A stretch of 64,000 bases of DNA from a virus (Duplodnaviria; Caudoviricetes). The DNA lies in IMG/VR virus record IMGVR_UViG_2859564202_000001. One strand, given 5' to 3'. Positions within the stretch are counted from its first letter, which is position 1, and every line of letters begins with the position of its first letter. This document shows positions 1 through 21,355 of this stretch, piece by piece. The position numbers were made by a program, and so were the translations under genes. The notes beneath the pieces are model-generated. The model worked only from the letters and a program-made list of their open reading frames with translations, ran no database searches and was not told the origin of the DNA.

Positions 1-3000
1 ACAAATCAAAGCGGTTCTTCTTATCGCCATAGGCAAGCTGATCAAGTGCTAGTGGCTTAATCTCAGTGGGTAGCTCATCATGGCTAAGCACACGCATATA
101 ACCCTGCTCATCAGAGAATTCTTCCGCGATCTTCTCCACCTGGTCAACGCCAACCGAGACACCCATACCCTTGTCATCGGCGTACATCTCCATGTACTGC
201 TGTACCCATTCATCCTTGGTGGCCTGGATAGGCTGGTGGTTCTCGTCCCTAACGACTTCCCACTCATAGCGACCTTGCTCATTCTCACCACGACGCATCT
301 TGCGACCTTGGTAGAGATCACCTACTGGTCCCATAAGAGTTTCTGCACGATAGAGCGCGTCAATCGGGTCGTGCTTCGCCTGCAGAATCGACTGCTGTGC
401 CGGTGCTGATGCAGCCATAGCTTCCTTGGTCAGACCAAGATTGCGGCACAATGCCACCATTTCCTGCTCTTTTTTACCAGCCACACCGGTAAAGAGCACC
501 TTAATTGCAGTCGCCTTCTGCGAACCCTCATAGTGGCTACGCAGCGCTTCTGGCGTTGGTTGACCTACGTCTTTAAAACCCTGCGCCGGATCAGCGCCGA
601 TATAGGTGGCATATTCCTTCAGCTTGCCAGGCGAACCTTTCGCACCCGTCTCGAAGCACTGCGCAACAGAAGCCATATGGTTTTCCATACCGTCAAAACG
701 CAAGGTCACCAAACCATCGCGGTTGGCAAAAGCCTGTGCATAGTGCTCATTGAGATCATCCATGTGTGCACGGTTGACCTCTAGCAATTCTTCGCGGCTA
801 ATCTCGCCGGCCTCGTATTCACGCTGGTAGCGGTTAAGCTCAGAGACAATAACCTTCATGTTCTCGGCCATTGCCGGATCATGGTGCTGCGCTACCTGTA
901 CATCGAGGCTGTCATGCAGAGTTAGCCCATAAAACATAGTGCCGTCCTCCATACGCTTACCATCACCAAGATCAAGCATGTTTGCCTCAACTGTGAGCCT
1001 GGACAATGCCTCCTCATGCGCCTTTTTCGGCAGATTGCCGACCAGACCTACAGAGTCACCATCGAAGTCACCGTCAAAGCTCTTCACCGACACAGGGTTG
1101 ACTGCCACACCGTGCAGATCATCATTAATAACCACACGCAAATAGCGCACACCACCATCGCGGATCACCGGATCACGCCACACCATTGCATAACCGTTAT
1201 CGAGAACGCCGAGTTCACGTGCCATCGAAGAGTTCATGGCTACTTCATCAACTGACAGGCGTGGATCACCTGTCCACACAGCAGTAGCGGAGTGTGACTG
1301 TCGCGCCGACATAAAGCCGTCCTTGAACACATTGTTCTTGGTCTCGATCCGGCTGGCGACAATATCATTAGCAATTCCATCAAAGCTTGCCTGCACCTTT
1401 TTCTGTGCTTGATCAACAAACTTCTGTGACTCGCTCAGTCGCTTTTCCGCAGCACGAGGCAACGTGCCGTGCTGCGCTTCCTCCTGGCGCAATGCGTCAA
1501 TCTTGGCTTGCTCTTCTGCCAGCTTGTAGCACGTATCAAAAATAGCCATATACCGCGTGGTGTACTCATGTCGAGAGGTACTACCGTCCGCTAAATCCTC
1601 ATCACTGCGCAAATGCGGGCTCAGTAGTGGCAACTGATACATGTCTGGATTATTAGGTGACTCTTCTAGCTGTGCACCATTGCGCAACTGTAACTGGAAA
1701 GGAATCTCCATAACACCACCAGCGCGACTGATCTGCTCAACAAAAGCTTCGCGCACCTGTGCACGATTAACACGATTATTCAGCTCACCGTTCTCATCGT
1801 AAATGCTTGGCATCTCGATGATATTGCGCTGCTCATTGGACTCGCTGAACCCCTCGCGCAACTCACCATACGGGGTGACATCAAGCCCCGTGACGCGAAG
1901 ATATTCCTGGAAGTTAGCCAATGCAGAGACGTTGTTGCCATAAAAGTGCTCCATAATCTCATGACATTCCTGGGCTTGGAGCACCCACGCCAGCTGAGAA
2001 GACGCTTTACGTCCTTGGCCCTCACGAACAGCTTCTTCATCATAGACATTGGTTTTCGCATCAACAGCCATATGCGTGACGATGAAGTTGAGATCACCAG
2101 AGGCACCTGGTTGAACACGAGTAGAACCATCATTATTCCTGAACACCACATCCTGCGGGTTGTTCATGAGCTCACGTGCCGTGCCACCATTAAAACGAGA
2201 AATGGCAGAAAACGGACTCATGACAACCTCTAGATCAGGGTTGTCTCGGAAAAACGCCACCTCTGATTCCAGCCCTGCTGCACGTGCATCAGCATCACTC
2301 ATCGCTGGATCAACAACAAGAGCGATCACACCCTTATTACCGTGAAAATCAGACAGCTTATCGCCGGCAACCAAGGGGCGCATCTCATCTTCCGTATCGC
2401 GAATAACATGGGTATTCGCAAAATCGGCAGAGACAATAATGCCATCTTCAAAGTTCCAACCGCCCAGCTGTATCATCGCAGTGCGTGCACCACCAGTCAC
2501 AGCGCTAGCCTGCATGATGTTCGAGAAAGTCATGTTCTGACGGTCATGTGGGTCAAAGCCCATCGCCCATGATTCTGGATGCGCTGCAACAGGTACTCGA
2601 TCAGCCGGATCACCAGGGGTAATCATGCCATCAGCGCCCACCTTCGCAGAAGGCAACAAATAGCGAACAGAACCCTGGTTCGCCGCCATACCAGTCATCA
2701 TGGGATCAAAGAAACCTTTACCCGCATCAACATCAAGTACAGAAATGTTACGCCCACCGGTAAGCACCAGCGCATCACGGGAGTTATCATTACGCGCATC
2801 AAAACCACGCTGCTGTGCTCGAATATCCTCCATCACATTCGCACCATCACGAATAGAGTTGTCGTAGCGCACACGCAAACTCGCAGTCTCAAGCAACGCA
2901 GCACGCCACTCATCGCTCAAACCTTCTTCGGCGCTGCGCTCGAAGAAGTCCACAGGGAAGCGATTGTCATACAGTCGCTTATATGCACTGTTGATGCTGG

Positions 3001-5851
3001 TTGTAGCACCCACTCGGGATCGCTCAGTGAACATCAAATCTTCTCGCACACGGTACACCAACGCCTCTGACATCACCTGCTCATAGCCTTTGAGCTTGGT
3101 ACGCTCTTCTAAACTCTTTGTCTCACCAGGCTTTTGTGGTACCACAGACGCGGTGTAGCCAGGGGCAAACATATAGTTCTCGCCACCATTAAATTTGGTG
3201 ACAATTTCACCATGCTCACCGCGAGTAAAAATCTGACCTATCTCACCCTGCACATGACGGGTGCGTTCACCGCGAACCTGCCCCTTACTATCTACTGCAC
3301 GACTATCCTTCGCACCAACACGTCGCTGTGCGGTCCACCGCACCACACCGTTATCGTCAACAGCAATATCGACCACATCAGCACCATTGCGGGAAATAGT
3401 CTCGGCAATGACAGTGCCAAATCGAGCCAACTGCGGGTCAAGATCAGGGTTATTAACCATTTTCTGCGCGGTCTCAGGATTAAATTTGAGCAACTGTTGA
3501 TTAATAACATCGTTATAGAATTCGTCACCGCGCAGTTCATCGCCAGTAATCGAAGTCGCTCGCAACGCGGCAATAATATCGTCATGGTTTGACCACAGGG
3601 ATTTAGCACTCGGCATGTGCTGAGCAACTGTCACCGGATTAAAACGCAAGCCGGTAACAGGATCAGGCTCCACCGTGCCGACATAATCATCAAGAACAAG
3701 GGCCGCGTGCTGACGCACACGATCCTCCACGGTCACAGCATTCATTGCTGAGGTCATCGCAGCAATCTGCTCATGATCACCATCGCGGATAGCAGCCATA
3801 TAATCATCGCGGTTAACCCCAGGGTTAAGCAGATCGGTTTCCTCACCTCGCAGCATCGCCCAATAGTCCTGCTTTATCGCCATGAGCTCATCCTCACCAG
3901 CAAAAGCCGGCATGAAGTCAGGATCATCGGCGTACTGTGCAGAAAGCGCAATCAGTTCTTCAACGCCGAGCTCTTCGGCCACACGCGCACGAGTAAGGGC
4001 GATATTGTTACCAAGCCACTCCGATGCTTTCGCTTCATTATCAAACCACTTTCCAGGACCAGCACTTCGATCACGTGCATCCTGAACGATCGAGAGCCCT
4101 TCACGCACCATGAATGCGGAACGATTCTTAGTGAAATATGCATCCTGTGCCTGCTCTAAAGCACGTGGGTGTCGAGCATTAGGCACACCAACAAGACCTT
4201 TGCCATCCTGTCGCTCAACCTCTCGACCGAGAGCAAATTTCACGAGATCGACAACTTCAGTTGGGCTTGGTTCATAATCAGTAGCCGGTGTCCACGTTCC
4301 ATCACCGTTCTCCATGCGCTCACGAGCTCGTAGACGTTCTTCCGCTGTTTGTTCGGCGGAATACTTAATCACAGTGCCAGAATCATAGACACGACCCACC
4401 CACTGTTCATTGGCGCGAGTATCAGTGAGACGAATATCAATACGGGTGCCCTCAATACGCACTTTAAGCTGTCCCGGCTCACGATCTGGCTCGATCCTAA
4501 AATCCACACCCTCATCCGACAGATACGTCAAAATAGCTTCCGAGCGCGCGATACCCTCATCAGACATGACCTTGTTGGGGTCAATTTTCTGACTCGCAAC
4601 ATCTGCGGTATCAATGAGTCCAGCACGCAGCCATGACGCTGCGGCACGGTATTCTTTAGCCGTCATAAACTGACCAATATTGGGCAGTCGCATCTGGTCA
4701 TTCTCGGTGATAGTGCGCCAGGCAATAGCTTCACCATTGACCCATTGAGTCAACGGTCGCACACCGCCTTTAGTGTCGTCTTCTCGATGAGTGCCCTCGT
4801 AAACATCATTATCTTGTAGGTGGATCGTTGCTAGATCAAGGTCCCTGATCATGCCAACACTCTCTTCGGACAGTGATAGCAGCTTGGTACCGTGCACACG
4901 GACTACTTCGCGGTCTGACCAGCGTGGATCATAAGGCGAAATAGGTAAACGACGACCACCCAGATCAGGTCCCTCAGGCAAACCATTAGGTCCAATTGCA
5001 GTGCCGACCATCTTGTCGAAACGGTGACGCAGCGCCTGGTACCCCTTTGAACCCTCACCCTCGCGAGCAATCGCACTAAACATGGGTGCTGCGTGAGGTG
5101 CCACCTCAGCAAAGGCAGCATTGACAGAGGCGAAGAATGCCTGAGTACTCCCCCGCTGCTCTACTGGTTCATAGGTTGCGAGATGCTCATCAACAAGCGC
5201 TCGGATCGCACGGCCATCAGAGGTGCTAAACTGCGACACACCAGCATCAACGTGCGTACCCCAGGTACCAAACATCTCGACACCTTCATAGAAGGCGTAC
5301 TCCCGGAAATAGCTCTCCATCGGATCAATGACAGGTAAACCCACACCCTCTGATTGGCGAACGGACTCTTGCGCGAGCGTTTGTTCAGCCTGGAATGTTG
5401 CTTGATCACGTGCCTGGAAAATAGCTGCCTGCTCTTGCTCATAAGCAGCTTGCTGTAGCGCTTGTGCCTGCTGCTGTTGGGCCACGAGATCCTGCTGCAC
5501 CAGCGCGTCATAAGATGACTTAATCGCCGTGTATTGCGGTGAATTAAGAATATTTCGCCTAGTTACCTTCGCGAACTGTGGTCGGTGTACACAGCCATGA
5601 GCTTCGGCATCAGCGGCGAAGGCATCATCGAAAGACGCAAACATGATGGCGCCATAGGTCGCTTCATCATTGAGGTCTAAGCCCTTATTGTTTGCTGCGC
5701 GCTGTTTCATCAAGGCTTCTGCTTGCCTATAGATACGCACAGCATCGTGATCACCCAGTGGAGCTTTGCCCCAGTGATCTTTTTGACCCCACTCTGAGCG
5801 CGCCATCTCAAGCGACCGTTCAAAAGCGTGTCGAAATAAAGTTTTGGACAT
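1..5851 (-). CDS. Giant single-polypeptide two-barrel (double-psi beta-barrel) DNA-dependent RNA polymerase, NCgl1702-like; 3' end runs off the window (>=1950 codons)
   Basis: ATG at 5851 follows a GGGAGG RBS, and the same frame is coding at position 1. Hand translation gives beta-like motifs DPHDRQNMTFSNIMQA, GWNFEDGIIVS, GDKLSDFHGNKGVI (2365-2327) and VVMSPFSAISRFN, then beta'-like VWRDPVIR and NPVSVKSFDGDFDGD (DFDGD at 1069-1055). All are in one frame. Not every codon was checked. Confidence 0.88.
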   Translation of the reverse strand, partial: MSKTLFRHAFERSLEMARSEWGQKDHWGKAPLGDHDAVRIYRQAEALMKQRAANNKGLDLNDEATYGAIMFASFDDAFAADAEAHGCVHRPQFAKVTRRNILNSPQYTAIKSSYDALVQQDLVAQQQQAQALQQAAYEQEQAAIFQARDQATFQAEQTLAQESVRQSEGVGLPVIDPMESYFREYAFYEGVEMFGTWGTHVDAGVSQFSTSDGRAIRALVDEHLATYEPVEQRGSTQAFFASVNAAFAEVAPHAAPMFSAIAREGEGSKGYQALRHRFDKMVGTAIGPNGLPEGPDLGGRRLPISPYDPRWSDREVVRVHGTKLLSLSEESVGMIRDLDLATIHLQDNDVYEGTHREDDTKGGVRPLTQWVNGEAIAWRTITENDQMRLPNIGQFMTAKEYRAAASWLRAGLIDTADVASQKIDPNKVMSDEGIARSEAILTYLSDEGVDFRIEPDREPGQLKVRIEGTRIDIRLTDTRANEQWVGRVYDSGTVIKYSAEQTAEERLRARERMENGDGTWTPATDYEPSPTEVVDLVKFALGREVERQDGKGLVGVPNARHPRALEQAQDAYFTKNRSAFMVREGLSIVQDARDRSAGPGKWFDNEAKASEWLGNNIALTRARVAEELGVEELIALSAQYADDPDFMPAFAGEDELMAIKQDYWAMLRGEETDLLNPGVNRDDYMAAIRDGDHEQIAAMTSAMNAVTVEDRVRQHAALVLDDYVGTVEPDPVTGLRFNPVTVAQHMPSAKSLWSNHDDIIAALRATSITGDELRGDEFYNDVINQQLLKFNPETAQKMVNNPDLDPQLARFGTVIAETISRNGADVVDIAVDDNGVVRWTAQRRVGAKDSRAVDSKGQVRGERTRHVQGEIGQIFTRGEHGEIVTKFNGGENYMFAPGYTASVVPQKPGETKSLEERTKLKGYEQVMSEALVYRVREDLMFTERSRVGATTSINSAYKRLYDNRFPVDFFERSAEEGLSDEWRAALLETASLRVRYDNSIRDGANVMEDIRAQQRGFDARNDNSRDALVLTGGRNISVLDVDAGKGFFDPMMTGMAANQGSVRYLLPSAKVGADGMITPGDPADRVPVAAHPESWAMGFDPHDRQNMTFSNIMQASAVTGGARTAMIQLGGWNFEDGIIVSADFANTHVIRDTEDEMRPLVAGDKLSDFHGNKGVIALVVDPAMSDADARAAGLESEVAFFRDNPDLEVVMSPFSAISRFNGGTARELMNNPQDVVFRNNDGSTRVQPGASGDLNFIVTHMAVDAKTNVYDEEAVREGQGRKASSQLAWVLQAQECHEIMEHFYGNNVSALANFQEYLRVTGLDVTPYGELREGFSESNEQRNIIEMPSIYDENGELNNRVNRAQVREAFVEQISRAGGVMEIPFQLQLRNGAQLEESPNNPDMYQLPLLSPHLRSDEDLADGSTSRHEYTTRYMAIFDTCYKLAEEQAKIDALRQEEAQHGTLPRAAEKRLSESQKFVDQAQKKVQASFDGIANDIVASRIETKNNVFKDGFMSARQSHSATAVWTGDPRLSVDEVAMNSSMARELGVLDNGYAMVWRDPVIRDGGVRYLRVVINDDLHGVAVNPVSVKSFDGDFDGDSVGLVGNLPKKAHEEALSRLTVEANMLDLGDGKRMEDGTMFYGLTLHDSLDVQVAQHHDPAMAENMKVIVSELNRYQREYEAGEISREELLEVNRAHMDDLNEHYAQAFANRDGLVTLRFDGMENHMASVAQCFETGAKGSPGKLKEYATYIGADPAQGFKDVGQPTPEALRSHYEGSQKATAIKVLFTGVAGKKEQEMVALCRNLGLTKEAMAASAPAQQSILQAKHDPIDALYRAETLMGPVGDLYQGRKMRRGENEQGRYEWEVVRDENHQPIQATKDEWVQQYMEMYADDKGMGVSVGVDQVEKIAEEFSDEQGYMRVLSHDELPTEIKPLALDQLAYGDKKNRFDL

Positions 5852-10431: not shown

Positions 10432-11955
10432 TTAAGCATCTTCAATACGCCTAAAGGCTCGCGCGACTTCTTTATCAAAGTGACCCTGGGCGAGATCACG
10501 CCAATGCGGAAGCTCCACCAGCATGATGCGGAATGCTCGGGTGGTCTTATATTTACCCATAGCAGACAGCGGATCATCCTCTGTGCCAGATAGAGCTTCT
10601 TCACCCTCAGAGTAGACACGCGACTGCTCCACTCCTGCTTGCGCGCGCATAAGTGCAATATCTTCCTGCGACAACGCCTCAATCAACACAGTGCCATCGA
10701 CAGCATTAACCAAGCCGTTGTTAGCAGTCACCCGGAAATTCGGATCTTGAGCAAAAGCGTGCAGGCTCTCATCATAGGCTGCAGTGAGCTCATCTTCGAG
10801 TGAGTCCTGCAGGATGTGGCCGAATTGATCAGCCAGCATATCTCGTGACACCTTGCCTTCGGCATAACGCTTCAACCGCATGTCAGCGAGCTTATGTTCT
10901 GCATTCTCCTGATCGTGAATGAATTCATCATTGACCTCTGCTTCTTCAGACAGAGATTTCTTTTTCACCTTCGTACCAGTAGCCACGGGGAAGCCCTGAG
11001 CACTGTCTTCGAACTCATCATCAAAAACGTCATATTCAGACTCCATGAAATCACGAGCATTCATGACAGACTCATCCCCCTCGTCATAATCCGGCGTGTC
11101 ATCGTACTCATCTTTCGCGATCATCGTGTCCACGATGTCCATGATTTCTGCTGAATACACATCCATATCCAGGCGTGCAATATCAGAGTCATCGAGCCCA
11201 GTCGCCTTTTTATAAATATCGACGGCACGCTGAGTACGAATCGACTGCGCCATGCGCTTTTCCAGCATCGCCATAAAGTCCGGTGCATTTTGATTCACAT
11301 CGAATTCATTAGCGCTCGACAGTGTTGGAATAGTCTGCAACGAGTATTCGCGACCCGGTTGGATAATCTGGTTAGCAAACAACATGAACGACATCGGCCA
11401 AATCGTTTCATTGCGTGACCACACCGGATACTGACCCGCACGGAAGACGATGGCGTTCTGCGATGGCAGAGTATTTAGGTCATTATAAGACACCACCGGC
11501 TCTTTTTCAGTTGCAGACGTGTACGACACTTTACCCTCGGTGCGCATAACTAACTGTGCCAAGTCACGGGTTACGGTCTTTGAATTTCTGCGTACAACAT
11601 GTCGCTCACCTGACCAATCCACCAACGTCTTAATCATTGTTTCGTCTGTGGATTTCAAGAAGATAATGTTGGACGTGTTGTGGGTCGGGATCATATCGTC
11701 AGTGATGTAGAGATGGTCACGGTCGGCAATGCTGATGCATTGCACGGTATCGCGGCGGGAGAATTCTACAGAGACGATTTCATTGTCTGCTGCGGGCACG
11801 TCGAGACGTGCCCGATCTGCTGGATCGAAGTTGTCGAGGATCTCTGGCGCCCGCGCTGCGACACCAGGCAGAAACACCTTATCCCCTCGTGCCAGCATCG
11901 CTTTAAGCTCTGCCGTGGTGACGATTCTGCGCTCGCCAGCAAGTGTTTGCGTCAT
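10432..11955 (-). CDS. C-terminal precursor of the fractured VirD4/TraG-like coupling protein: IntC (aa 1-93) plus C-extein (414 aa)
   Basis: Intein blocks F/G (VQCISIADRDHLYITDDMIPTHN) then +1 Thr, followed by the T4CP-like TSNIIFLKSTDETMIKTLVDWSG; has its own RBS (GAAGGGG). Confidence 0.85.
   Translation of the reverse strand: MTQTLAGERRIVTTAELKAMLARGDKVFLPGVAARAPEILDNFDPADRARLDVPAADNEIVSVEFSRRDTVQCISIADRDHLYITDDMIPTHNTSNIIFLKSTDETMIKTLVDWSGERHVVRRNSKTVTRDLAQLVMRTEGKVSYTSATEKEPVVSYNDLNTLPSQNAIVFRAGQYPVWSRNETIWPMSFMLFANQIIQPGREYSLQTIPTLSSANEFDVNQNAPDFMAMLEKRMAQSIRTQRAVDIYKKATGLDDSDIARLDMDVYSAEIMDIVDTMIAKDEYDDTPDYDEGDESVMNARDFMESEYDVFDDEFEDSAQGFPVATGTKVKKKSLSEEAEVNDEFIHDQENAEHKLADMRLKRYAEGKVSRDMLADQFGHILQDSLEDELTAAYDESLHAFAQDPNFRVTANNGLVNAVDGTVLIEALSQEDIALMRAQAGVEQSRVYSEGEEALSGTEDDPLSAMGKYKTTRAFRIMLVELPHWRDLAQGHFDKEVARAFRRIEDA
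11677..11955 (-). mobile_element. C-terminal half of a split class 3 intein (93 aa)
   Basis: Block F Cys (VQC), block G Thr-His-Asn, +1 Thr. Confidence 0.85.
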
Positions 11956-12181: not shown

Positions 12182-12901
12182 TTAGCGATTAAAGCGCCCA
12201 CAAATATAACCAACAGCAAATCCAGCAAGAGCACTTGTTGTTGCGCTCTCGACAGGACGGGTGGCTATATCCTCGGCAGGACTATCGGGGCTATCAGCAT
12301 TATCTTCGTCATAAAAATCAGTGAGTATGCCATCAATAAAGTCATCCATGATTGATGTGATGAAACTGGCGACTGCAATGAGCAGCAGCGATACGCACAT
12401 AATCCATGCAGGTGCATCACTAAACGTATTAGGTGTGCTTGGGACGATGAATCCAAATGTAACAGAGTAGACAAGTCCGGGAATTAGTAGCGCATAAATA
12501 GCAATTAATACTACATAAGCAATAACAACACTGAACCTAGAAGAAGTCTTGTTGACGTAAAGCGCCATGCGACGTGCGATATGCGCGAACTCATGGCGAC
12601 CGTGCACTACTCTATACATTGTTATCGCCATGTAGATCGCCAGGATTACTACGGATACAATCATTGCAGTCGAAGTTAGCCCTTCGACCAATGGAGTTGG
12701 CGCAATCATCAAAACCAGCAGCAGCGCTCTAATCTTGCGGACGAATAATGTGCGCAACATACTTCCTGCAATTTGCATATTGCTAGGATCGTCTGTGCCC
12801 CTGCCACGTCCGCCCTTGAGGTAGTGGTCTTCAATTCTATTGGTATTAGTCACTGGACTTTTTTCTCCTTGTGTAAATGTTCCTGAAAATAGTAGACTCA
12901 T
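12182..12901 (-). CDS. Hypothetical integral membrane protein (about 4 TM segments)
   Basis: Hydrophobic segments and an acidic tail; start uncertain. Confidence 0.65.
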   Translation of the reverse strand: MSLLFSGTFTQGEKSPVTNTNRIEDHYLKGGRGRGTDDPSNMQIAGSMLRTLFVRKIRALLLVLMIAPTPLVEGLTSTAMIVSVVILAIYMAITMYRVVHGRHEFAHIARRMALYVNKTSSRFSVVIAYVVLIAIYALLIPGLVYSVTFGFIVPSTPNTFSDAPAWIMCVSLLLIAVASFITSIMDDFIDGILTDFYDEDNADSPDSPAEDIATRPVESATTSALAGFAVGYICGRFNR

Positions 12902-13194: not shown

Positions 13195-15015
13195 ATGCCA
13201 ACACTGCTTATTGACACCCATCCGCATCTTGCAGCGCAACTTCTTGACCCTGGTTTAGGTGAACTTCTTACAGCCGGTTCCAACAAAAAAGTGCAGTGGC
13301 AGTGCCCTAAGCACTCCAATCACATCTGGACGGCCTCGGTTAATAACCGCACCAATGCAAAGAACCCGCGCTGCCCCTATTGTGCCGGAACACGAGTGTT
13401 GGCAGGTTTTAATGATCTCGCCACCACTCACCCGCATCTTGCTGTACAGCTGGTTGACCAAGATATTGCCGTCACCATTTCCGCTGGTTCTGGCAAAAGA
13501 CAACTGTGGCAGTGTGTAGTAAACCCAAAACACCAGTGGTTGGCTACGCCAAATAATCGCACGAGTACTAAATCTGCGAGTTCTGGTTGCCCCTACTGTG
13601 CCAACCGAGCGGTATTAGTCGGTGACAATGACTTTGCAACAACCTACCCCGAACTTGCAGCGCAATTAGTAGATCAATCTGCAGCGACAACCTTTACAGC
13701 CGGCCACAACAAGCCTGTTGAGTGGATCTGTTGCAAGCATGAACCACCATTTATCTGGAAAACCTCACCAATTTTGCGTGTACGACAGAACACCCAGTGC
13801 CCTGTGTGCTCAGAGCGAACTGTGGCGCCGGCGCTTAATGATCTTGCAACCACTCACCCTAAACTTGCCGAGCAAATTGCAGATCCTCAACCAAGTGGTG
13901 TGAGCGCCGCGGCCATTATCCCCACCATTAGCAGGGGTTCCCATACGCAATTAACATGGCAATGTTCTAAAAATCATGACCACCAATGGGTCGCCACAGT
14001 AAAGGATCGTGTTCGCGGAACAGACTGCCCCACCTGCGCAAATACAGGAACTTCACGCAAAGAGGCTGAACTTATTGAGGTCATCCGTGCATTATTCCCA
14101 AACACTGATGTCCAGCAAGGTGCGCTCATTAATGGACGTACCGGTAATCAAGGTGCATCGCCGTCAACCGATGTACTCATACCGTCCAAAAATCTCGCTA
14201 TCGAGTTCAACGGCCTGTACTGGCACTCTGAGCTTTTCATCAAAGATAAGCATTATCATGCGAACAAATCAGCTCTCGCAGAACAAGCCGGTGTGCAGCT
14301 CATTCATGTGTGGGAGGACGACTGGAATCTTCGCCGCGACATTGTGATCCGCATGATCGCACACAAGCTTCATGCAACCCATAACCTCAGTGCTGTTTTG
14401 CCTACCGAAACTACTGACTCACGTGTGGCAACCACCGCTTTCGCCCGTACACTCACACTGTCGGTGGTCTCTGGTTCACGCGCTGCTGCATTCTTGAACA
14501 GCAACCATATTCAGGGTGCTGTCTCGGCCACTAAGCACTTTGCCCTGTGCGACAACAACGACGATATTCGAGCACTCCTGTCGGTGCGCTCACCAAAAAA
14601 CAATGCCCGCATGTATCGCAAAAAAGGCACATGGGAAATCCAGCGCTATGCGACACTCGGTAACGTCCCTGGCGGTTTTACTAGGCTGCTGAAGTTTGCC
14701 GAGCACACACTCAACGAACACAGCACAGTACTCAAGCAATGGATCTCATTTTCTGCTGCTGATGTCTCTGACGGCAGCCTGTATCGAACTGCCGGTTTTA
14801 CCGCCGAGCAACAGCTTGCACCGGATTATCGCTATGTCGGTGGCGCAACAGGTTGGCGCCGAACACCCAAAGAAAGCTTCCAGCGCAAACGCTTTAGAGA
14901 CGACCCAGCGTTGCTATGGAACGAATCTTGGACAGAGCACGAAGCAGCGCTCAACAACGAGCTCTACAGAATCTACGATGCCGGCAAAACCCGGTGGGTT
15001 AAAAATGTTGCTTGA
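13195..15015 (+). CDS. Free-standing putative homing endonuclease: four zinc-ribbon repeats, a Vsr-like nuclease and a Hef-like C-terminus
   Basis: Repeated W.C...H.W...R...CP.C units; DVLIPSKNLAIEFNGLYWH...LIHVWEDDW; located between the intein halves in opposite orientation. Confidence 0.8.
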   Translation: MPTLLIDTHPHLAAQLLDPGLGELLTAGSNKKVQWQCPKHSNHIWTASVNNRTNAKNPRCPYCAGTRVLAGFNDLATTHPHLAVQLVDQDIAVTISAGSGKRQLWQCVVNPKHQWLATPNNRTSTKSASSGCPYCANRAVLVGDNDFATTYPELAAQLVDQSAATTFTAGHNKPVEWICCKHEPPFIWKTSPILRVRQNTQCPVCSERTVAPALNDLATTHPKLAEQIADPQPSGVSAAAIIPTISRGSHTQLTWQCSKNHDHQWVATVKDRVRGTDCPTCANTGTSRKEAELIEVIRALFPNTDVQQGALINGRTGNQGASPSTDVLIPSKNLAIEFNGLYWHSELFIKDKHYHANKSALAEQAGVQLIHVWEDDWNLRRDIVIRMIAHKLHATHNLSAVLPTETTDSRVATTAFARTLTLSVVSGSRAAAFLNSNHIQGAVSATKHFALCDNNDDIRALLSVRSPKNNARMYRKKGTWEIQRYATLGNVPGGFTRLLKFAEHTLNEHSTVLKQWISFSAADVSDGSLYRTAGFTAEQQLAPDYRYVGGATGWRRTPKESFQRKRFRDDPALLWNESWTEHEAALNNELYRIYDAGKTRWVKNVA

Positions 15016-15597: not shown

Positions 15598-15641
15598 AAA
15601 AAACAACCCCCTAAGGATAATCCTCAGGGGGTTGTTCTGTT
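15598..15641. terminator. Bidirectional terminator downstream of the IntN-bearing exon
   Basis: aacaaccccct...agggggttgtt hairpin with A/T tails. Confidence 0.8.
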
Positions 15642-15649
15642 TCGACTCA

Positions 15650-15969
15650 TTATGCTGCGCTTGCTGCATCCTGCTCGGCAGGAACCACAATCACTTCCCA
15701 CAAATGCTCATCACAAGCCTCTGTGGTTGAGCCATCTTTACGTGTCACAGTAAATACATCTCGCTCACCCTGTGGGAACACACCGTCAATCTCGCTGACT
15801 GTCCCCTTTGGGGTAAGCACCTTCATACCTGCTTCTGCTTCGCCCATCGTGACCCATCCATCAGGTGTTGCGATCTTCGCCGTCAACGGCTGCGCATTAC
15901 CTTGGAGAATCTTGTCTGAGGCTTCGCCATACACCTGAGTCAACTGCTGCAGTGTCTGCAGAATCAATG
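15650..15969 (-). CDS. VirD4-like gene exon 3: end of N-extein (TLILQTLQQLTQVYGEASDKILQGN) plus IntN
   Basis: In frame with exon 2 after removing the group II intron (A+CA = Thr); T4CP motif Q...QL...YG. Confidence 0.85.
15653..15895 (-). mobile_element. N-terminal half of a split class 3 intein (81 aa)
   Basis: Block A AQPLTAKIATPDGW starts with Ala; block B TEACDEHLWEV contains Trp. Confidence 0.85.
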
Positions 15970-18033
15970 ATGTCAATAGGTAACGCTTTGATCTTATCTC
16001 CACGTTTTCCCCTGACCCACACCGTACGTGCGACTTTCACCGCATACGGCGCTCCATCACTAGAGTTCTTATCCCTCCGGTGACTTGTGACCATTACTCC
16101 TGCTCTCATTACAAGAGCTATCAACGCTTCGATCACTACTTTTCAACACTCGTTCGACTGCTTATTATTCTTCGTCAGTCTACGCAAAACCGCTATCCAA
16201 AAACTTCTTCCTGAAACGGACCACTTACTAATAACTCGCCAATTGATTCTGCTGTTCTCGCCGTATATGGGATCTCCAAAAGTGTTAGCTCTCGGACTAC
16301 AGTAAACGCTCGTTTTCGTCTGTCGTGCTCTTGTTGGATCGCGAAACGACTCTCTCCACCGAAATACTCAACTGGTCTAAAATGCTGCTCACCTTGGCAC
16401 TCAATCAACAACCAGGGCTCGGTATCCTTGAAAACCAAAAAATCATAACTCAGTGGTCCTCCACCAACCCCCACCAAACCATCGAAAGTCTTTTGAGATT
16501 CAAACTGAAAATCATTCTTTAAAAGAAAGTCCCTGACATGTGACTCTTGGATTGATCCGTGCAAACAACCACACGATTGGCTAATACCCTGCCTCAACAT
16601 AATCCCAGCAACAGCATTTTCGGAGCCGCACATACATCGGCACAACCACATTTGAGACCGCCCACCACCAGGGTAAAACCTGTCATCCGTACGAGACAGC
16701 ACAGTCCACTGGTTAAATACCTTGCCAGTCAAATCTTCAAAAACAGCAGTTTCTCGTCGCTGTTCTATGCGATAGCACCCGCACGATATTGACCGACCCC
16801 GCAACAAAGACTGTTCCAATACGTCCCTTGTCGCTCCACACTCGCACTCGCAAAACCACGCCTTAGATAAGCGACCCCACTGCAGCACGTCCTCACCACG
16901 TCGAACAACAGACCATCGACCAAATGTGGAACCAACTAAATCCCTATTCTTTGAAAGCGACTCGATTTTTAGACAACCACACGATTTCGAATCACCATTC
17001 TTCAGTGACCCCGCAGCAAGATCTTTCTCAACACCGCAAGTACATCTGCAATGCCACATGGTGGTTTTCCTTCCTGTGGAGGAAACCCTACTTTCCGCTC
17101 GATCTATGACAGTCCATCGCCCAAACACCTGACCTATGAGATCCTGTAAGTTCTTACCCTGCATCCTTTTACGAACAGTCTCATAACGACGACAACCGCA
17201 CGATGCGGTTTCATCAGCGTTCTTAAATCTAGAGGCCGGTGCATCATACTCCCTGCCACAATCACAAAGACATTGATACCGAACCTCAATCTTGCCACTT
17301 TTGTTTACACGATCGTTAGTGCGATAAAGAACTTTTATATGCCCGAAAGTTTTACCGGATAAATCATTAAACTTTCGTCGCCGATGTTGTTGCGGTGCTC
17401 GTATTGTCATCTCAAACTACTTTCAAATATATACCTTTATTTGTATATATTACCCCTTTTAATTAATTAAACAAGCTTTCAGCCTTGATAACAAGTGGTC
17501 CATTTCACTATAAAGTTATTAAATATTGGCAGCTATTTCACGCCGAATATCTTTCCCAGTTCCGTTTCACCTATCCGTTACATGCTGCCCTTAGGTGCTC
17601 ACTCTGACCCTGCTCGCCTCGGATGTGCCTGTAACACATCAGGGAGGTTCATAAATTCAAGTCTTACTTGTCCCCTACGAGCACTAACGCATTTCTACGC
17701 CGAACAATTCAAGAGCCGTACATTCGCAAGTTCGTCAGTTATCTCACTCGATAACATTCTCACCCTAGGCAGTTTCTGGACACCCGGCATATCAGCGGCA
17801 CATCAGATCACTCTGACGCTTTCGTAGCTACTGTGATCAAATCCCAGCACCTTTACGACCGACCTTCTGCCGACTCTAACGGGCTTTATACAGTTCTATT
17901 TTGTTCAAACCGCATACCGTAGCTTGGTGTGCACATTTCAGGGCGTTACTCCGTCATTCTGTGTATCAATGAAACAGTTTCTTGCAACTTTAAGCTGCAA
18001 GAGCGTAGTTTTTCGCTACGCAACTGGTCGCAC
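15970..18033 (-). mobile_element. Group II intron (2064 nt) with a non-RT ORF
   Basis: 5' GTGCG at 18033. Domain V GAGCGCCGTATGCGGTGAAAGTCGCACGTACGGTGTG (about 16054-16018, CGC triad), a domain VI stem, and 3' AT at 15970. Removal restores GQEQQF-T-LILQTLQQL. Confidence 0.92.
16193..17410 (-). CDS. Group II intron-encoded putative homing endonuclease (four CxC/SCGC repeats plus a Vsr/DUF559-like nuclease)
   Basis: Four DLxGxxFGxWxV...CxCxCG...SCGC repeats; YDFLV...LIECQGEQH...HDRRK; no RT (YADD) motif. Confidence 0.82.
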   Translation of the reverse strand: MTIRAPQQHRRRKFNDLSGKTFGHIKVLYRTNDRVNKSGKIEVRYQCLCDCGREYDAPASRFKNADETASCGCRRYETVRKRMQGKNLQDLIGQVFGRWTVIDRAESRVSSTGRKTTMWHCRCTCGVEKDLAAGSLKNGDSKSCGCLKIESLSKNRDLVGSTFGRWSVVRRGEDVLQWGRLSKAWFCECECGATRDVLEQSLLRGRSISCGCYRIEQRRETAVFEDLTGKVFNQWTVLSRTDDRFYPGGGRSQMWLCRCMCGSENAVAGIMLRQGISQSCGCLHGSIQESHVRDFLLKNDFQFESQKTFDGLVGVGGGPLSYDFLVFKDTEPWLLIECQGEQHFRPVEYFGGESRFAIQQEHDRRKRAFTVVRELTLLEIPYTARTAESIGELLVSGPFQEEVFG

Positions 18034-19690
18034 TAAATTGTTGTTCTTGTCCCAGACCGATCGAGAGCATGGTTTCAAATCCCGCAATACCATGACCCTC
18101 ACTCTGAAGGTTTCCCAACTCGTCCAACATGAAACGAGTCTTATAATCCGGCTTCTGATTCTCACGCGTCATATACGAGGAATCGAAGTTCAGATCCACA
18201 AGCTGTTTGATGAGAATCAAAATCAACTTCGCATATTTCATAAGATGCGGAGGCGTTACGAAGAACACTGCCTTAGGCTTCTCCGAATACCGCACATTCA
18301 GAGCCGACACCGCATCAACCATCGCATCAACCTGCTTGATCATGTCATGACCCGGCATATTGATCTGTTCCTGCGTGAGTTGGTCAAGATTCAGTTTCTT
18401 CGTCTTAAACTGCACATGACCTGGAACAAAGTCACCAGCATCGTTTTTCACCAGCTCGATCAGCAGACCATTCTTAATGATCTTCTCATCGGTCACCGGA
18501 TCAGTAATAAACGCACGGCCTTTAAGGTTCGTTTGGTAGCCCTTGGTGAACTTGAAGTACAGAGTCTTGATCAACGTGCCAGAAGTACCATTGAGAATCC
18601 GCAAACGCAGGTACGCAGTATTACTCGGGAACGAGTCTTTAATATAGAACCGCGCCCAACCCTCAACCGACAGCGTGTCATCATGAACAAAATTCTTACC
18701 CAACGGCTTGGTGAACTTGGCGTCACTATACGCATCCCATTTCACCTGTGATCCAACCAGGTTGTAGCGCTTCACATAGGGGGCCGCAAAACGAACACCC
18801 ATGCGCCGTGGAAACGACAATCCGGCCAAGTCAACGTTCTGACTTAGTGTGCCTGAGGTTAACGTTGAAATTGTGGGGTCTGTAAAGAAGGACATCGCTG
18901 TAATCGCGATACCGTAGACCGACGCCATCATTTTTTCAGCGCCACCCATTGCTTTCAGGGCCTTATCTGCGTTGCCCACCAGAGTACGAACACTGGACTT
19001 TGGCAGACCGTCTGTGGCACTAAAGAACAAGGTGAGCATGTCTTTTTCTTTCTCACCCTCCCACAGAAACATTTCGTTCTCTTCGGCCTCTGTCACAGCA
19101 TCCTGGAACATCATGGCTGCATTTTCATCAGTCTCTAAGTTACCGAATTCACCGGCACGTGCACGTTCATTGAGTCGCTCAACGGGATTCTTCAGCTTCT
19201 TTGCCGAAAGCTGCACAAAGAGCTGGTAGCAGTTGTAGAGCGTGACCTTACCCCACATCTGATCAATACGTGTATCAAGCACCTTGGCATCCCAATTCTC
19301 AGCTGCAGCCTGCTTGCGCATCTCGCGCTCCTCTTCCAAATAGAAGTCGATAAGACCATAGGCTGCACGCTTGAAGGCATTGTTGGCCGCATTCGGCCAT
19401 ACCGGATCATCGGCACCGTCCACCGGAAAGAACACCTCTGCGATATTTTCCACATAGGTTGCGCACTTCATCCCGTTACCTTCGCGAGCTGCTTCGGCTG
19501 CTAATCCCAACGGGTTATAAATATCAGTTTTCAGGTTGTTAATCAGGTTAAACTGAACAACCTGAAAACCGCGCTTAGACATCCGAACATAATTTTTCTT
19601 CAGCAACTCGCCTTTAGGGTCGTTGATACACATATTGTTCGGTCGAGTTTCCCTCGTCCACATGTCGATCATTGGCTCAATGTAGGTCTG
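18034..19690 (-). CDS. VirD4-like gene exon 2 (P-loop continuation through Walker B)
   Basis: QTYIEPMIDMW, INDPKGEL, YNPL and RFMLDELGNL are T4CP motifs. Confidence 0.88.
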
Positions 19691-21355
19691 ACATGATCTT
19701 CAGGACTGTTCGCAACACAATCCTCGGGGGCGAACCCCTGCTCACGCTTTCACGTGAGATGAGATTATATGTTCATCTTAAGTGCTTAATAACTTAATAA
19801 GTTTGTCGAGAATCCCAATCAATTGAATCTAAACAACCACCATCAAACCACGCTCGCGCATCACTTAATCGAGGATGTCTTCCCTCACCATCAATAGAAC
19901 TGCTGCCATCCCAAAAAACCAAATAATTCAACTTATTGATTCTTGCGGCCTCGCGCTTAGCCACATCAGTTTCGGTCCAGACACGAATGAAACTCCTATA
20001 TCTAGATTGACCGCCAAACTCCGATTCAAGTTCATCTGCTCTACCCATCCAAAATCTAACAAGACTCTGGTCACGCTCGTCAGATGAATCAAACCAGTGG
20101 TCATTATGACTACGATCCCCATTCAATTCGATGAACATATCTCGGGATTTGATGTAGTAGTCAACATGAAAAGGATAACGATCATCCACAACCACATTTC
20201 GAAGTACATCGTCCATGCCAAAACGATTTTGAAGCAAAACTTCTAAGGCGTCCTCTGGTTTTGAATCATTTAATGTACCGTTCAATCTGCGAGCTTCGAA
20301 AATCTTCTCCCGAATTTCAGGTACCAAAACACTATCCGGCGCACCATAAAGCGATGTCATAGTTTCTTGTCTAGACTTTCGAACTTTTTCCGCAACTTCT
20401 GGGATTTGAGTCGGATAATCAACACCATGGCGATCATTCATCGTAGCCCTAAGGGTATTTTGCATTCTCAATAATATGTCTGGATCTTGATTCGGGTGCT
20501 CTACTCCATAACGTTCAACCAACGTGGCTGTTCTTTTCTCCCGCCCACGCTCAACAGCAACCTCATTGACAAACCGATCAAAGGTCGATTTATCAAAAAC
20601 GTTATCGACTCCGTAGCGCTCCCTGACTGTAGCAATCTGCTTCAACTTCCAACACTCATCTCGCAAAACTCTATAGCGGGACTCACCCAGAATCGACCTG
20701 AATACCTTTGCGTAATCCCCGAATCCACAATCTAACGCCATAATTTTCTTCGATCTTCCAGCTTGGTATAGATCATCAAATTCACAACTCATCTCCCTAT
20801 AGGCAGCTTCTACTTCATCATGGTTAAATCGTTTCTCAATAAAACTAATCTGATAATTTTGCACATCAGCTTTACTAAACCGAGTGCCCTTAACCAAATT
20901 CTGTTTCAATACCGATTGAATAGATAATCCGGTATGAGTTTTGATGTAGTCACCAGGGAAACCACGGAGGTACAAATCTGTTGCCTGTTGAAGAATTGTC
21001 ATAAAAATATTCTACTAAATTAATGACATTACTATCGACAAACCTATTAAGTTATCAAACAACATAAGAGTTAGATTTTTCTTCTGCCATGAGCTTGCAG
21101 TTCTACTCCCCCACAAGGGGATAATCGTTGAACCTACCGCATGGTGTCACGCACTGTAGCGGTGTGGCTGCTAAAGACCCATTGTTACGTGATCTCTTAG
21201 GATTTAACCTTAAGACCATCTCTTCTTTTCTTTCCGCTTTCGCAACCATATCGGTATGAGTTTTCACTCTGCCGTTTCGGTAAGAAGAGCTTTAGGGATT
21301 CAAAGCAATTAACCTAAAAGTATGCGCTTGTCACCAAACGCACAGGGCCTTAGTT
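19691..21355 (-). mobile_element. Group I intron (about 1665 nt) in the Walker A codons, ORF in the P8 region; exact 3' splice site ambiguous
   Basis: P1 AGGGU/GCCCU with a U.G wobble at 21356. P3 UUAGGUU/AAUCUAA. P7 A(C)GAUUA (21128-21122) pairs with UAAUCU (19767-19762). P9-like hairpins precede exon 2. Removal restores TRAGKG-QTYIEP. Confidence 0.88.
19794..21002 (-). CDS. Group I intron-encoded putative homing endonuclease (EDxHD/Vsr-like)
   Basis: (E/D)R(Y/H)GV(D/E) repeats; VDYYIKSRDMFIELNGDRSH nuclease motif; TAGAAT-N6-ATG suggests a leaderless promoter. Confidence 0.8.
   Translation of the reverse strand: MTILQQATDLYLRGFPGDYIKTHTGLSIQSVLKQNLVKGTRFSKADVQNYQISFIEKRFNHDEVEAAYREMSCEFDDLYQAGRSKKIMALDCGFGDYAKVFRSILGESRYRVLRDECWKLKQIATVRERYGVDNVFDKSTFDRFVNEVAVERGREKRTATLVERYGVEHPNQDPDILLRMQNTLRATMNDRHGVDYPTQIPEVAEKVRKSRQETMTSLYGAPDSVLVPEIREKIFEARRLNGTLNDSKPEDALEVLLQNRFGMDDVLRNVVVDDRYPFHVDYYIKSRDMFIELNGDRSHNDHWFDSSDERDQSLVRFWMGRADELESEFGGQSRYRSFIRVWTETDVAKREAARINKLNYLVFWDGSSSIDGEGRHPRLSDARAWFDGGCLDSIDWDSRQTY

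What the first reader, a model, noticed from the sequence alone, without database searches (positions are those of the whole stretch)
15970..18033. Group II intron carrying a Vsr-like, Cys-repeat endonuclease instead of an RT/maturase
Seen: GUGCG start, a canonical domain V with a CGC triad, domain VI, an AU end and exact frame restoration. The 405-aa ORF ends just upstream of domain V, which is the domain IV position. It has four CxC..SCGC repeats and a Vsr/DUF559-like nuclease, with no RT motifs. A candidate EBS2 UUGUUC (17707-17702) is complementary to exon GAACAA. Established: bacterial group II introns normally encode RT-maturases, and the non-RT cases I know of mostly carry LAGLIDADG enzymes. 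Inference: this intron spreads by DNA-break homing and splices without a maturase or borrows one in trans.
Basis: partly seen in the sequence, partly recalled or inferred. Interest (0 to 1): 0.88.

Follow-up and report, generated by a model that had tools for sequence, protein, structure and literature searches.

The report
Endonuclease-carrying group II intron, conjugation gene
A self-splicing group II intron interrupts the DNA-transfer (coupling) ATPase gene of an integrated conjugative element and carries a DNA-cutting homing enzyme where a reverse transcriptase normally sits; it is real, but this kind of intron was described in phages in 2025, and what is new here is the bacterial setting, the enzyme's position in RNA domain II and a homing site shared across two phyla.

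Summary
The feature is real. Rfam finds a group IIB domain I (RF02004, 133 bits) and domains V/VI (RF00029, 62 bits) at the stated ends. Removing 18033..15970 rejoins the coupling-protein frame exactly as in intact Rhodococcus and Gordonia homologues.

The 405-aa ORF has four Cys-rich repeats. Its C-terminal domain has Vsr and I-Bth0305I as best structural matches (Z 10.2 each). It has no RT or maturase motifs, and the nearest complete genome has none either.

One claim is wrong. The ORF lies in domain II, not domain IV: covarying helices for domain III and a stub of domain IV follow the ORF.

The kind is not new. Merk, Jones and Eddy (NAR 2025) described phage group IIB introns with Zn-repeat plus EDxHD/Vsr endonucleases, and the AR9 enzyme is a homologue (hhalign 98%). 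This scan has also noted phage examples before.

New here:
- a lineage of at least nine further copies inserted at one codon of coupling-protein genes, in low-GC elements (two named Bacillota) and in high-GC or actinobacterial-type ones
- the domain II placement
- a repeat module that Pfam does not recognise

Homing by DNA break repair and maturase-free splicing are inferred, not shown.

The parts
18034..19690 (-). Upstream exon of the coupling-protein (VirD4/TraG-like) gene. IBS2 GAACAA is at 18046..18041 and IBS1 AAUUUA at 18039..18034.
   Evidence: tblastn to the intact Rhodococcus T4CP, aa 426-977, 72% identity. Pfam T4SS-DNA_transf. IBS/EBS covariation.
15970..18033 (-). Group IIB intron, 2064 nt, GUGCG...AU
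   Evidence: Rfam RF02004 at 133 bits and RF00029 at 62 bits. The junction is exact against intron-less homologues.
17556..18027 (-). Domain I. Basal stem 18027..18021 with 17563..17556. EBS2 at 17707..17702 and EBS1 UGAAUU at 17659..17654.
   Evidence: RNAalifold on 5 introns. Coordinates. Compensatory EBS1/IBS1 and EBS2/IBS2 changes in 6 introns.
16146..17550 (-). Domain II. Basal stem 17550..17544 with 16152..16146. It encloses the endonuclease ORF and a conserved post-ORF hairpin (16180..16156).
   Evidence: The 7-bp stem is fully paired in 5 introns with both-side changes.
16193..17410 (-). Homing endonuclease ORF, 405 aa. Four Cys-rich repeats (about aa 15-284, 17368..16559) and a Vsr/EDxHD-like nuclease (aa 285-405, 16558..16196).
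   Evidence: PHROG 374/559/9084 'homing endonuclease'. Model pLDDT 91. Vsr and I-Bth0305I at Z 10.2. hhalign to the AR9 intron endonuclease, 98.2%. Invariant E289, D323, E337 and nearly invariant H343, D363, K366.
16137..16144 (-). J2/3 linker GAAAAGUA
   Evidence: Conserved in all copies.
16087..16136 (-). Domain III
   Evidence: Covarying helices. The homologous domain III lies before the ORF in the RT-encoding intron of L005 and in the AR9 and MarsHill introns.
16056..16084 (-). Domain IV, reduced to a short hairpin with no ORF
   Evidence: 7 pairs, 5 of them with both-side changes.
16019..16054 (-). Domain V with CGC triad
   Evidence: RF00029 alignment. Nearly invariant in 8 copies.
15972..16018 (-). 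Domain VI with bulged branch-point candidate A15977
   Evidence: RF00029. Covarying stem with one unpaired A.
15893..15969 (-). Downstream exon (..LILQTLQQL..QGN), up to the start of the split-intein N part
   Evidence: tblastn to Rhodococcus T4CP, aa 977-998.

Best explanation
This is a splicing-competent group IIB intron that has lost its reverse transcriptase/maturase: domain IV is now a 29-nt hairpin. It carries in domain II a homing endonuclease made of four Cys-rich, presumably zinc-binding, DNA-reading repeats and a Vsr/EDxHD-type nuclease.

Inferred mechanism:
1. When the conjugative element meets a related element whose coupling-protein gene lacks the intron, the enzyme cuts that allele near GG-N-CAR-GAN-CAR-CAR-TTY-A|C.
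2. Break repair then copies the intron in.
3. At the RNA level the ribozyme removes itself by branching at A15977. It is guided by EBS1/IBS1 and EBS2/IBS2, and no intron-encoded maturase is available in this genome.
4. Removal restores the coupling-protein frame.

Shown here: the RNA anatomy, the endonuclease fold and homology, the shared insertion site, and the absence of RT in the nearest genome. Inferred: cleavage, homing and splicing.
For: - Rfam matches for domain I and domains V/VI.
- All six domains are recovered with compensatory changes: 22 of 51 pairs in domains III-VI, plus the domain II basal stem and the EBS/IBS pairs.
- The junction is exact against intact homologues.
- The endonuclease model has pLDDT 91, with Vsr and I-Bth0305I as top PDB matches.
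- It is homologous to the AR9 group II intron endonuclease.
- The ORF is intact, with conserved catalytic residues across 46 relatives.
- The same intron, endonuclease and insertion codon occur in L002, L005, L014, L094, L102, L265, L267 and L269/L271, whose exons are only 61-78% identical at the DNA level.
- The nearest complete genome has one domain V hit, no RVT_1, no GIIM and one copy of the endonuclease.
Against:
- RT absence was checked in G001, the nearest held genome (100% of sampled words), not in the window's own assembly. A plasmid-borne RT cannot be excluded.
- The host gene also needs two more removals to be whole: a candidate group I intron with an unresolved 3' end, and a split intein. 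Selection for splicing in this particular copy is therefore not proven.
- Intron identity between copies is not clearly above exon identity, so recent homing events are not visible.
Confidence: 0.8

Rival explanations
1. The intron is a dead relic: loss of the maturase and insertion of a 1.2-kb gene into domain II have disabled splicing, and the coupling-protein gene is a pseudogene.
For: - The genome has no maturase.
- The host gene is cut by three elements.
- None of 60 sampled relatives carries the element.
Against: - Every helix, including the domain II stem that brackets the ORF, is kept by compensatory substitutions across 5-8 diverged copies.
- The exons stay open and in frame in all copies.
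- The catalytic domain V is nearly invariant.
Confidence: 0.07
2. The intron still moves by retrohoming, using a reverse transcriptase supplied in trans by another group II intron. The endonuclease would be a passenger.
For: RT-encoding introns with almost the same domain V sit in the same gene in Virgibacillus (L005).
Against: - No RVT_1 or GIIM match in the nearest complete genome, and only one group II intron there.
- The domain IV stub lacks the usual protein-binding arm.
- Strict fidelity to one site, together with an intact endonuclease, fits DNA homing.
Confidence: 0.05
3. The endonuclease also acts as the splicing helper (maturase) for its own intron, as some group I intron LAGLIDADG proteins do.
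For: - No other maturase is present.
- A conserved hairpin with an invariant loop lies just after the ORF inside domain II and could be a protein-binding site.
Against: No evidence either way from sequence.
Confidence: 0.12

Closest known systems
Phage group IIB introns encoding CapR-like repeat plus EDxHD/Vsr-like homing endonucleases (AR9, PBS1, MarsHill, S6; Merk, Jones and Eddy, NAR 2025, PMC12350094)
   Same: - IIB backbone hitting Rfam D1D4-5, CGC triad, AU 3' end.
- Domain V is 83% identical to that of AR9.
- No RT.
- The endonuclease is a set of Zn-type repeats followed by a homologous Vsr-like nuclease.
- A second intron in the same host gene, a group I intron in AR9 and a candidate one here, carries its own endonuclease gene.
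   Different: - The host is a bacterial integrated conjugative element, not a phage.
- The target is a coupling-protein gene, not a phage RNA polymerase gene.
- The ORF lies in domain II, whereas the phage ORFs end 36-90 nt from the intron end, which is domain IV.
- The repeats are a W-x-C-x-C-x-C-G...S-C-G-C module with no Pfam CapR, DUF4379 or DUF723 match in 46 members.
I-Bth0305I and the EDxHD homing endonuclease family; E. coli Vsr
   Same: The nuclease fold matches at Z 10.2 for each. Acidic, His and Asp residues are conserved.
   Different: 14-20% identity. I-Bth0305I is encoded in a group I intron of a phage recA gene and has a different DNA-binding region. Activity of the protein here is untested.
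Group II introns encoding LAGLIDADG endonucleases (fungal and algal mitochondria, Thiotrichaceae rRNA; PMC13190283)
   Same: The RT/maturase is replaced by a DNA homing enzyme on a group II ribozyme. That paper argues for repeated modular assembly.
   Different: A different enzyme family. The reported ORF sites are domain IV, domain III or domain IB, none in domain II. Those introns sit in rRNA or cox1 genes.
Ll.LtrB and other RT-encoding group II introns in conjugation genes
   Same: A group II intron inside an essential transfer gene, so splicing gates conjugation.
   Different: Ll.LtrB is class IIA, carries an RT/maturase in domain IV and moves by retrohoming.

Membership tests
Group II intron (class IIB) | 5' GUGYG and a domain I matching a IIB covariance model | tested here: met
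   GUGCG at 18033. RF02004 at 133.1 bits against a gathering score of 34.5.
Group II intron (class IIB) | Domain V with a catalytic triad and a 2-nt bulge; domain VI with a bulged A 7-8 nt from the 3' end | tested here: met
   RF00029 at 62 bits. CGC triad. A15977 unpaired in a covarying stem.
Group II intron (class IIB) | EBS1/IBS1 and EBS2/IBS2 pairing with the 5' exon | tested here: met
   Pairs kept through both-side changes in six introns with different exons.
Group II intron (class IIB) | Splicing by branching, with ligated exons | not testable with these tools
Phage-type endonuclease-encoding group II introns (Merk et al. 2025) | No RT; ORF with an EDxHD/Vsr-like C-terminal nuclease homologous to the AR9 enzyme | tested here: met
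   hhalign 98.2%, E 4e-14. BLASTP 27% over 137 aa. No RVT_1.
Phage-type endonuclease-encoding group II introns (Merk et al. 2025) | N-terminal repeats related to Pfam CapR, DUF4379 or DUF723 | tested here: not met
   No such hit at E 0.1 in any of 46 family members. Fold similarity of the repeats was not tested, because the fold searches covered only the nuclease domain.
Phage-type endonuclease-encoding group II introns (Merk et al. 2025) | ORF in the usual domain IV position | tested here: not met
   Domain III and a domain IV stub follow the ORF. In the AR9, MarsHill and RT-encoding introns, domain III precedes the ORF.
EDxHD/Vsr homing endonucleases | Vsr-like fold with conserved acidic, His and Asp residues | tested here: met
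   1cw0_A and 3r3p_B at Z 10.2. E289, D323, E337 invariant; H343, D363 in at least 90%.
EDxHD/Vsr homing endonucleases | Site-specific cleavage of the intron-less allele | not testable with these tools
   Needs a biochemical assay.
Group II intron RT/maturase proteins | RT domain and X/maturase domain | tested here: not met
   No Pfam RVT_1 or GIIM in the ORF or anywhere in G001.

The most novel reading that the evidence does not exclude
This is the first described member of a widespread, undescribed lineage of RT-less group IIB introns with four properties:
- They carry their homing endonuclease in domain II, an independent acquisition from the phage cases.
- They home to one codon of type IV coupling-protein genes in conjugative elements: low-GC ones (two named Bacillota) and high-GC or actinobacterial-type ones.
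- They splice without any maturase.
- In the two high-GC copies they have evolved an in-frame ...NYALAA stop tail that mimics the host tmRNA degron, so that unspliced product is destroyed.
Probability: 0.4. Interest if true: 0.68.

Novelty: new variant of a known kind. Interest (0 to 1): 0.55.

Why it matters
It extends endonuclease-driven group II introns, published only for phages, to bacterial conjugative elements.

It also indicates that the swap from reverse transcriptase to endonuclease happened more than once. Here the gene sits in domain II and domain IV is reduced to a stub, whereas in phages it sits in domain IV.

The intron lies in the coupling ATPase, so its splicing would gate DNA transfer.

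The family offers natural intron-plus and intron-minus pairs for three tests:
- maturase-free group II splicing in bacteria
- the cleavage specificity of an untested nuclease family
- competition among three kinds of self-splicing element in one gene

Tried and rejected
- The single-sequence fold was useless, at pLDDT 32. The alignment-based fold worked.
- Foldseek with the whole beads-on-a-string model gave no match at E <= 0.001. VIA-align found the nuclease matches.
- I looked for the intron around 240 more distant endonuclease relatives from genomes, metagenomes and IMG/VR. Only L014/L015, L094 and L102 have a domain V directly after the gene; L099 and L100 show one only upstream. No viral contig has one. 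The 575-664-aa relatives (L007, L272) are not in group II introns.
- MT836027, an ICE-like scaffold set aside by Merk et al., has neither this coupling protein nor this endonuclease.
- Rfam found no family in the first insertion, 19691..21355, even at E 5.
- No sigma-70-like promoter was found on the minus strand upstream of the ORF.
- hhalign found no significant similarity between this endonuclease family and the two other endonuclease-like ORFs of the host gene (probability about 1%).
- Intron identity against exon identity showed no sign of recent transfer.
- No paper in the library holds 'group II intron', 'coupling protein' and 'homing endonuclease' together.

Full report
WHAT IS THERE

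On the minus strand, 18033..15970 is a 2064-nt group II intron. Rfam places group-II-D1D4-5 (RF02004, 133.1 bits, E 5e-29) at 17982..17773. It places the domain V/VI model (RF00029, 62 bits, E 9e-10) at 16054..15970, and these are the only two Rfam hits in the window. The intron starts GUGCG and ends AU. Domain V carries a CGC triad.

The host gene is a type IV secretion coupling protein (Pfam T4SS-DNA_transf). Its closest plasmid homologues are uninterrupted 1412-aa genes on Rhodococcus fascians pGS01 and Gordonia pGKT2, at 72% and 71% identity. tblastn with the Rhodococcus protein shows residues 426-977 ending at 18032/18034 and residue 977 resuming at 15970/15969. The split codon A|CA gives the Thr that the intact genes have at that position. 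Frame restoration is therefore exact.

THE ORF

ORF 17410..16193 (405 aa) has four repeats of the pattern W/Y-x-C-x-C-x-C-G ... S-C-G-C and a C-terminal domain with the motif I-E-C-Q-G-E-Q-H.

- Pfam has no significant match and no RT.
- PHROGs assigns it to homing-endonuclease families 374, 559 and 9084.
- It has 937 relatives at E <= 0.001.
- A 46-sequence alignment keeps every repeat Cys in at least 90% of sequences. E289, D323 and E337 are invariant; H343, D363 and K366 are present in at least 90%.
- The alignment-based model has pLDDT 91.
- Residues 284-405 best match E. coli Vsr (1cw0_A, Z 10.2, rmsd 2.8, 106 residues) and the I-Bth0305I catalytic domain (3r3p_B, Z 10.2).

RNA ANATOMY AND ONE CORRECTION

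I aligned the ribozyme parts of five to eight related introns.

- EBS1 (UGAAUU, 17659..17654) pairs with IBS1 (AAUUUA, 18039..18034).
- Both pairings are kept through changes on both sides in introns whose exons differ. For example, IBS1 AGUAUA pairs with EBS1 UGUACU in L002, and AGUUCA with UGAACU in L094.
- Domain I closes at 18027..18021 with 17563..17556.
- The next helix, 17550..17544 with 16152..16146, brackets the ORF. It is fully paired in five introns with compensatory changes.
- After it come the linker GAAAAGUA (16144..16137), a 50-nt domain (16136..16087), a 29-nt hairpin (16084..16056), domain V and domain VI.
- RNAalifold on eight copies of this 3' part gives 51 pairs, of which 22 show both-side changes. 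It leaves a single unpaired A (15977) in domain VI.

The 50-nt domain is domain III. Its conserved core (..UGAUAG-stem-UUGUAAUG-stem-GGAGURAUGG..) aligns with the domain that lies before the ORF in three other introns: the RT-encoding intron of the same gene in Virgibacillus (L005), and the AR9 and MarsHill introns.

So the endonuclease gene sits in domain II, and domain IV is a stub with no ORF. Another first-stage note on this genome (e1-5753874) reads domain II as well.

RELATIVES AND HOMING SITE

The closest protein relatives sit between two halves of coupling-protein genes, flanked by RF02004 and RF00029 hits. These are P0002 (62% identity) and P0004 (Virgibacillus sp. AGTR, 55%).

A domain V/VI model built here (R1) was run over 240 loci encoding relatives from genomes, metagenomes and IMG/VR. 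It found a domain V directly after the endonuclease gene only in L014/L015, L094 and L102, and upstream only in L099 and L100. It found none in viral contigs. Three further close relatives (P0005, P0021, P0034) gave the same result.

In every one of these the intron lies after the codon aligned with residue 977 of the Rhodococcus protein. The site reads GG-N-CAR-GAN-CAR-CAR-TTY-A|GUGCGAC.

Locus G+C ranges from 35% to 61%. Two low-GC copies come from named Bacillota (Virgibacillus, a Lachnospiraceae MAG). The window (48% G+C, actinobacterial-type T4CP) and two high-GC copies (L002 61%, L267 55%) make up the rest.

Exon DNA identity between copies is 61-78%, ribozyme 63-87% and endonuclease gene 59-68%. 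The association is therefore old and there is no sign of a very recent jump. More distant relatives (39% identity or less) are free-standing or lie in other contexts.

NO MATURASE

The nearest held genome (G001) is one contig of 3.3 Mb, scored 100% complete, and shares 100% of the window's sampled words. It has one RF00029 hit, no RVT_1, no GIIM and one copy of the endonuclease.

MECHANISM

Shown:
- an intact six-domain ribozyme under structural selection
- an intact endonuclease homologous to a known homing family
- one conserved target site

Inferred:
- The enzyme cuts intron-less coupling-protein alleles when two related elements meet, and repair copies the intron in.
- The RNA splices without an intron-encoded maturase.

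COMPARISON WITH WHAT IS KNOWN

Merk, Jones and Eddy (NAR 2025, PMC12350094) reported four phage group II introns (AR9, PBS1, MarsHill, S6). These encode three to five CapR/DUF4379/DUF723-like domains plus an EDxHD/Vsr-like nuclease. All are class IIB, hit D1D4-5 or D1D4-7, have a CGC or AGC triad and end in AT. They share host genes with endonuclease-bearing group I introns.

The window's intron shares the backbone signature. Its domain V is 83% identical to that of AR9. Its nuclease domain is homologous to the AR9 enzyme (BLASTP E 2e-7; hhalign 98.2%).

It differs in four ways:
- Setting: a conjugative element in a bacterial chromosome.
- Target gene: a coupling protein.
- ORF position: domain II here. 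The phage ORFs end 36-90 nt from the intron end.
- Repeat module: no CapR, DUF4379 or DUF723 hit in 46 members.

A 2026 survey of LAGLIDADG-bearing group II introns lists ORFs in domain IV, domain III and domain IB only. No paper in the library combines 'group II intron', 'coupling protein' and 'homing endonuclease'. This scan has already followed up phage examples of the 2025 kind (e1-5482984, e1-5647182).

VERDICT

The feature is real and well supported. It is a new variant of a recently described kind, not a new category.

CONTEXT

The same host gene is cut twice more. A 1665-nt insertion lies after the Walker A GKG. A split intein lies after QGN. Each is accompanied by its own endonuclease-like ORF. 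Details are under Noticed in passing.

Noticed in passing
window 19691-21355 (-): A 1665-nt insertion sits exactly between ..TRAGKG and QTYIEP.. of the Walker A motif of the same coupling-protein gene. It holds a 402-aa ORF (21002..19794; Pfam DUF7487, PHROG 3339 'homing endonuclease', F-I-E-L-N-G-D-x-x-H motif). A P1-like pairing AGGGU/GCCCU with a U.G at the 5' junction, plus 72% identity of its first 240 nt to unannotated gaps in Enterococcus and Staphylococcus Herelleviridae phages, suggest a group I intron. However, Rfam finds nothing even at E 5, and an in-frame 3' end would need a terminal U, not G.
   Followed up: partly
window 15650-15892 (-) and 11680-11955 (-): Split intein in the same gene. 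The N part starts A-Q-P-L-T-A-K-I-A-T-P-D-G-W right after ..QGN, contains ..DEHLW, and ends at a stop followed by a strong terminator (15638..15600). The C part opens ORF 11955..10432, has ..V-Q-C-I-S.. and ends ..I-P-T-H-N|T-S-N-I-I-F-L, rejoining the homologue's sequence. Ala1 plus the W, C, T pattern looks like a class 3 intein, and it is naturally split 3.7 kb apart.
   Followed up: partly
window 13195-15015 (+) and 12182-12901 (-): Two ORFs lie between the intein halves. One is a plus-strand 606-aa protein with four DUF4379 treble-clef zinc fingers, a weak REase_MTES_1575 match and PHROG 559/3339 'homing endonuclease' hits. This resembles the 'fractured gene' layout of Dassa et al. 2009. 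The other is a 239-aa membrane-like ORF with no family. By hhalign the 606-aa protein is not detectably related to the intron's endonuclease.
   Followed up: partly
window 17990-18033 (-): If the intron is not spliced, exon 1 reads on as S-A-T-S-C-V-A-K-N-Y-A-L-A-A-stop. The nearest genome's tmRNA tag is AEKSQRDYALAA, so the tail ends in the host's own degron YALAA. The high-GC relative L002 encodes the identical 14-residue tail although the DNA differs at six positions, all synonymous (sequence). The low-GC copies (L005, L014) lack it. With only two lineages, and a region that also forms ribozyme hairpins, this is suggestive only.
   Followed up: partly
L005:198-2218; L014:590-685; L094:1547-1668; L102:153-235; L100:912-1007; L267:1592-1688; L269:2026-2121; L271:313-408 and 1216-2346: Coupling-protein genes of related elements carry further group II introns at other codons (about aa 486, 525, 679/691 and 938 of the Rhodococcus numbering). 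One has an RT (L005) and an almost identical domain V. In L271 another insertion holds a DUF723/DUF7487 endonuclease gene. This gene family looks like a hot spot for self-splicing elements.
   Followed up: partly
window 2-5851 (-); L002:7169-9218; L005:6812-9209: Downstream of the coupling-protein gene, in the window and in relatives, lies a very large ORF (over 1950 aa here). Its homologues carry faint RNA_pol_Rpb1/Rpb2 hits. It may be an element-encoded single-chain RNA polymerase.
   Followed up: no
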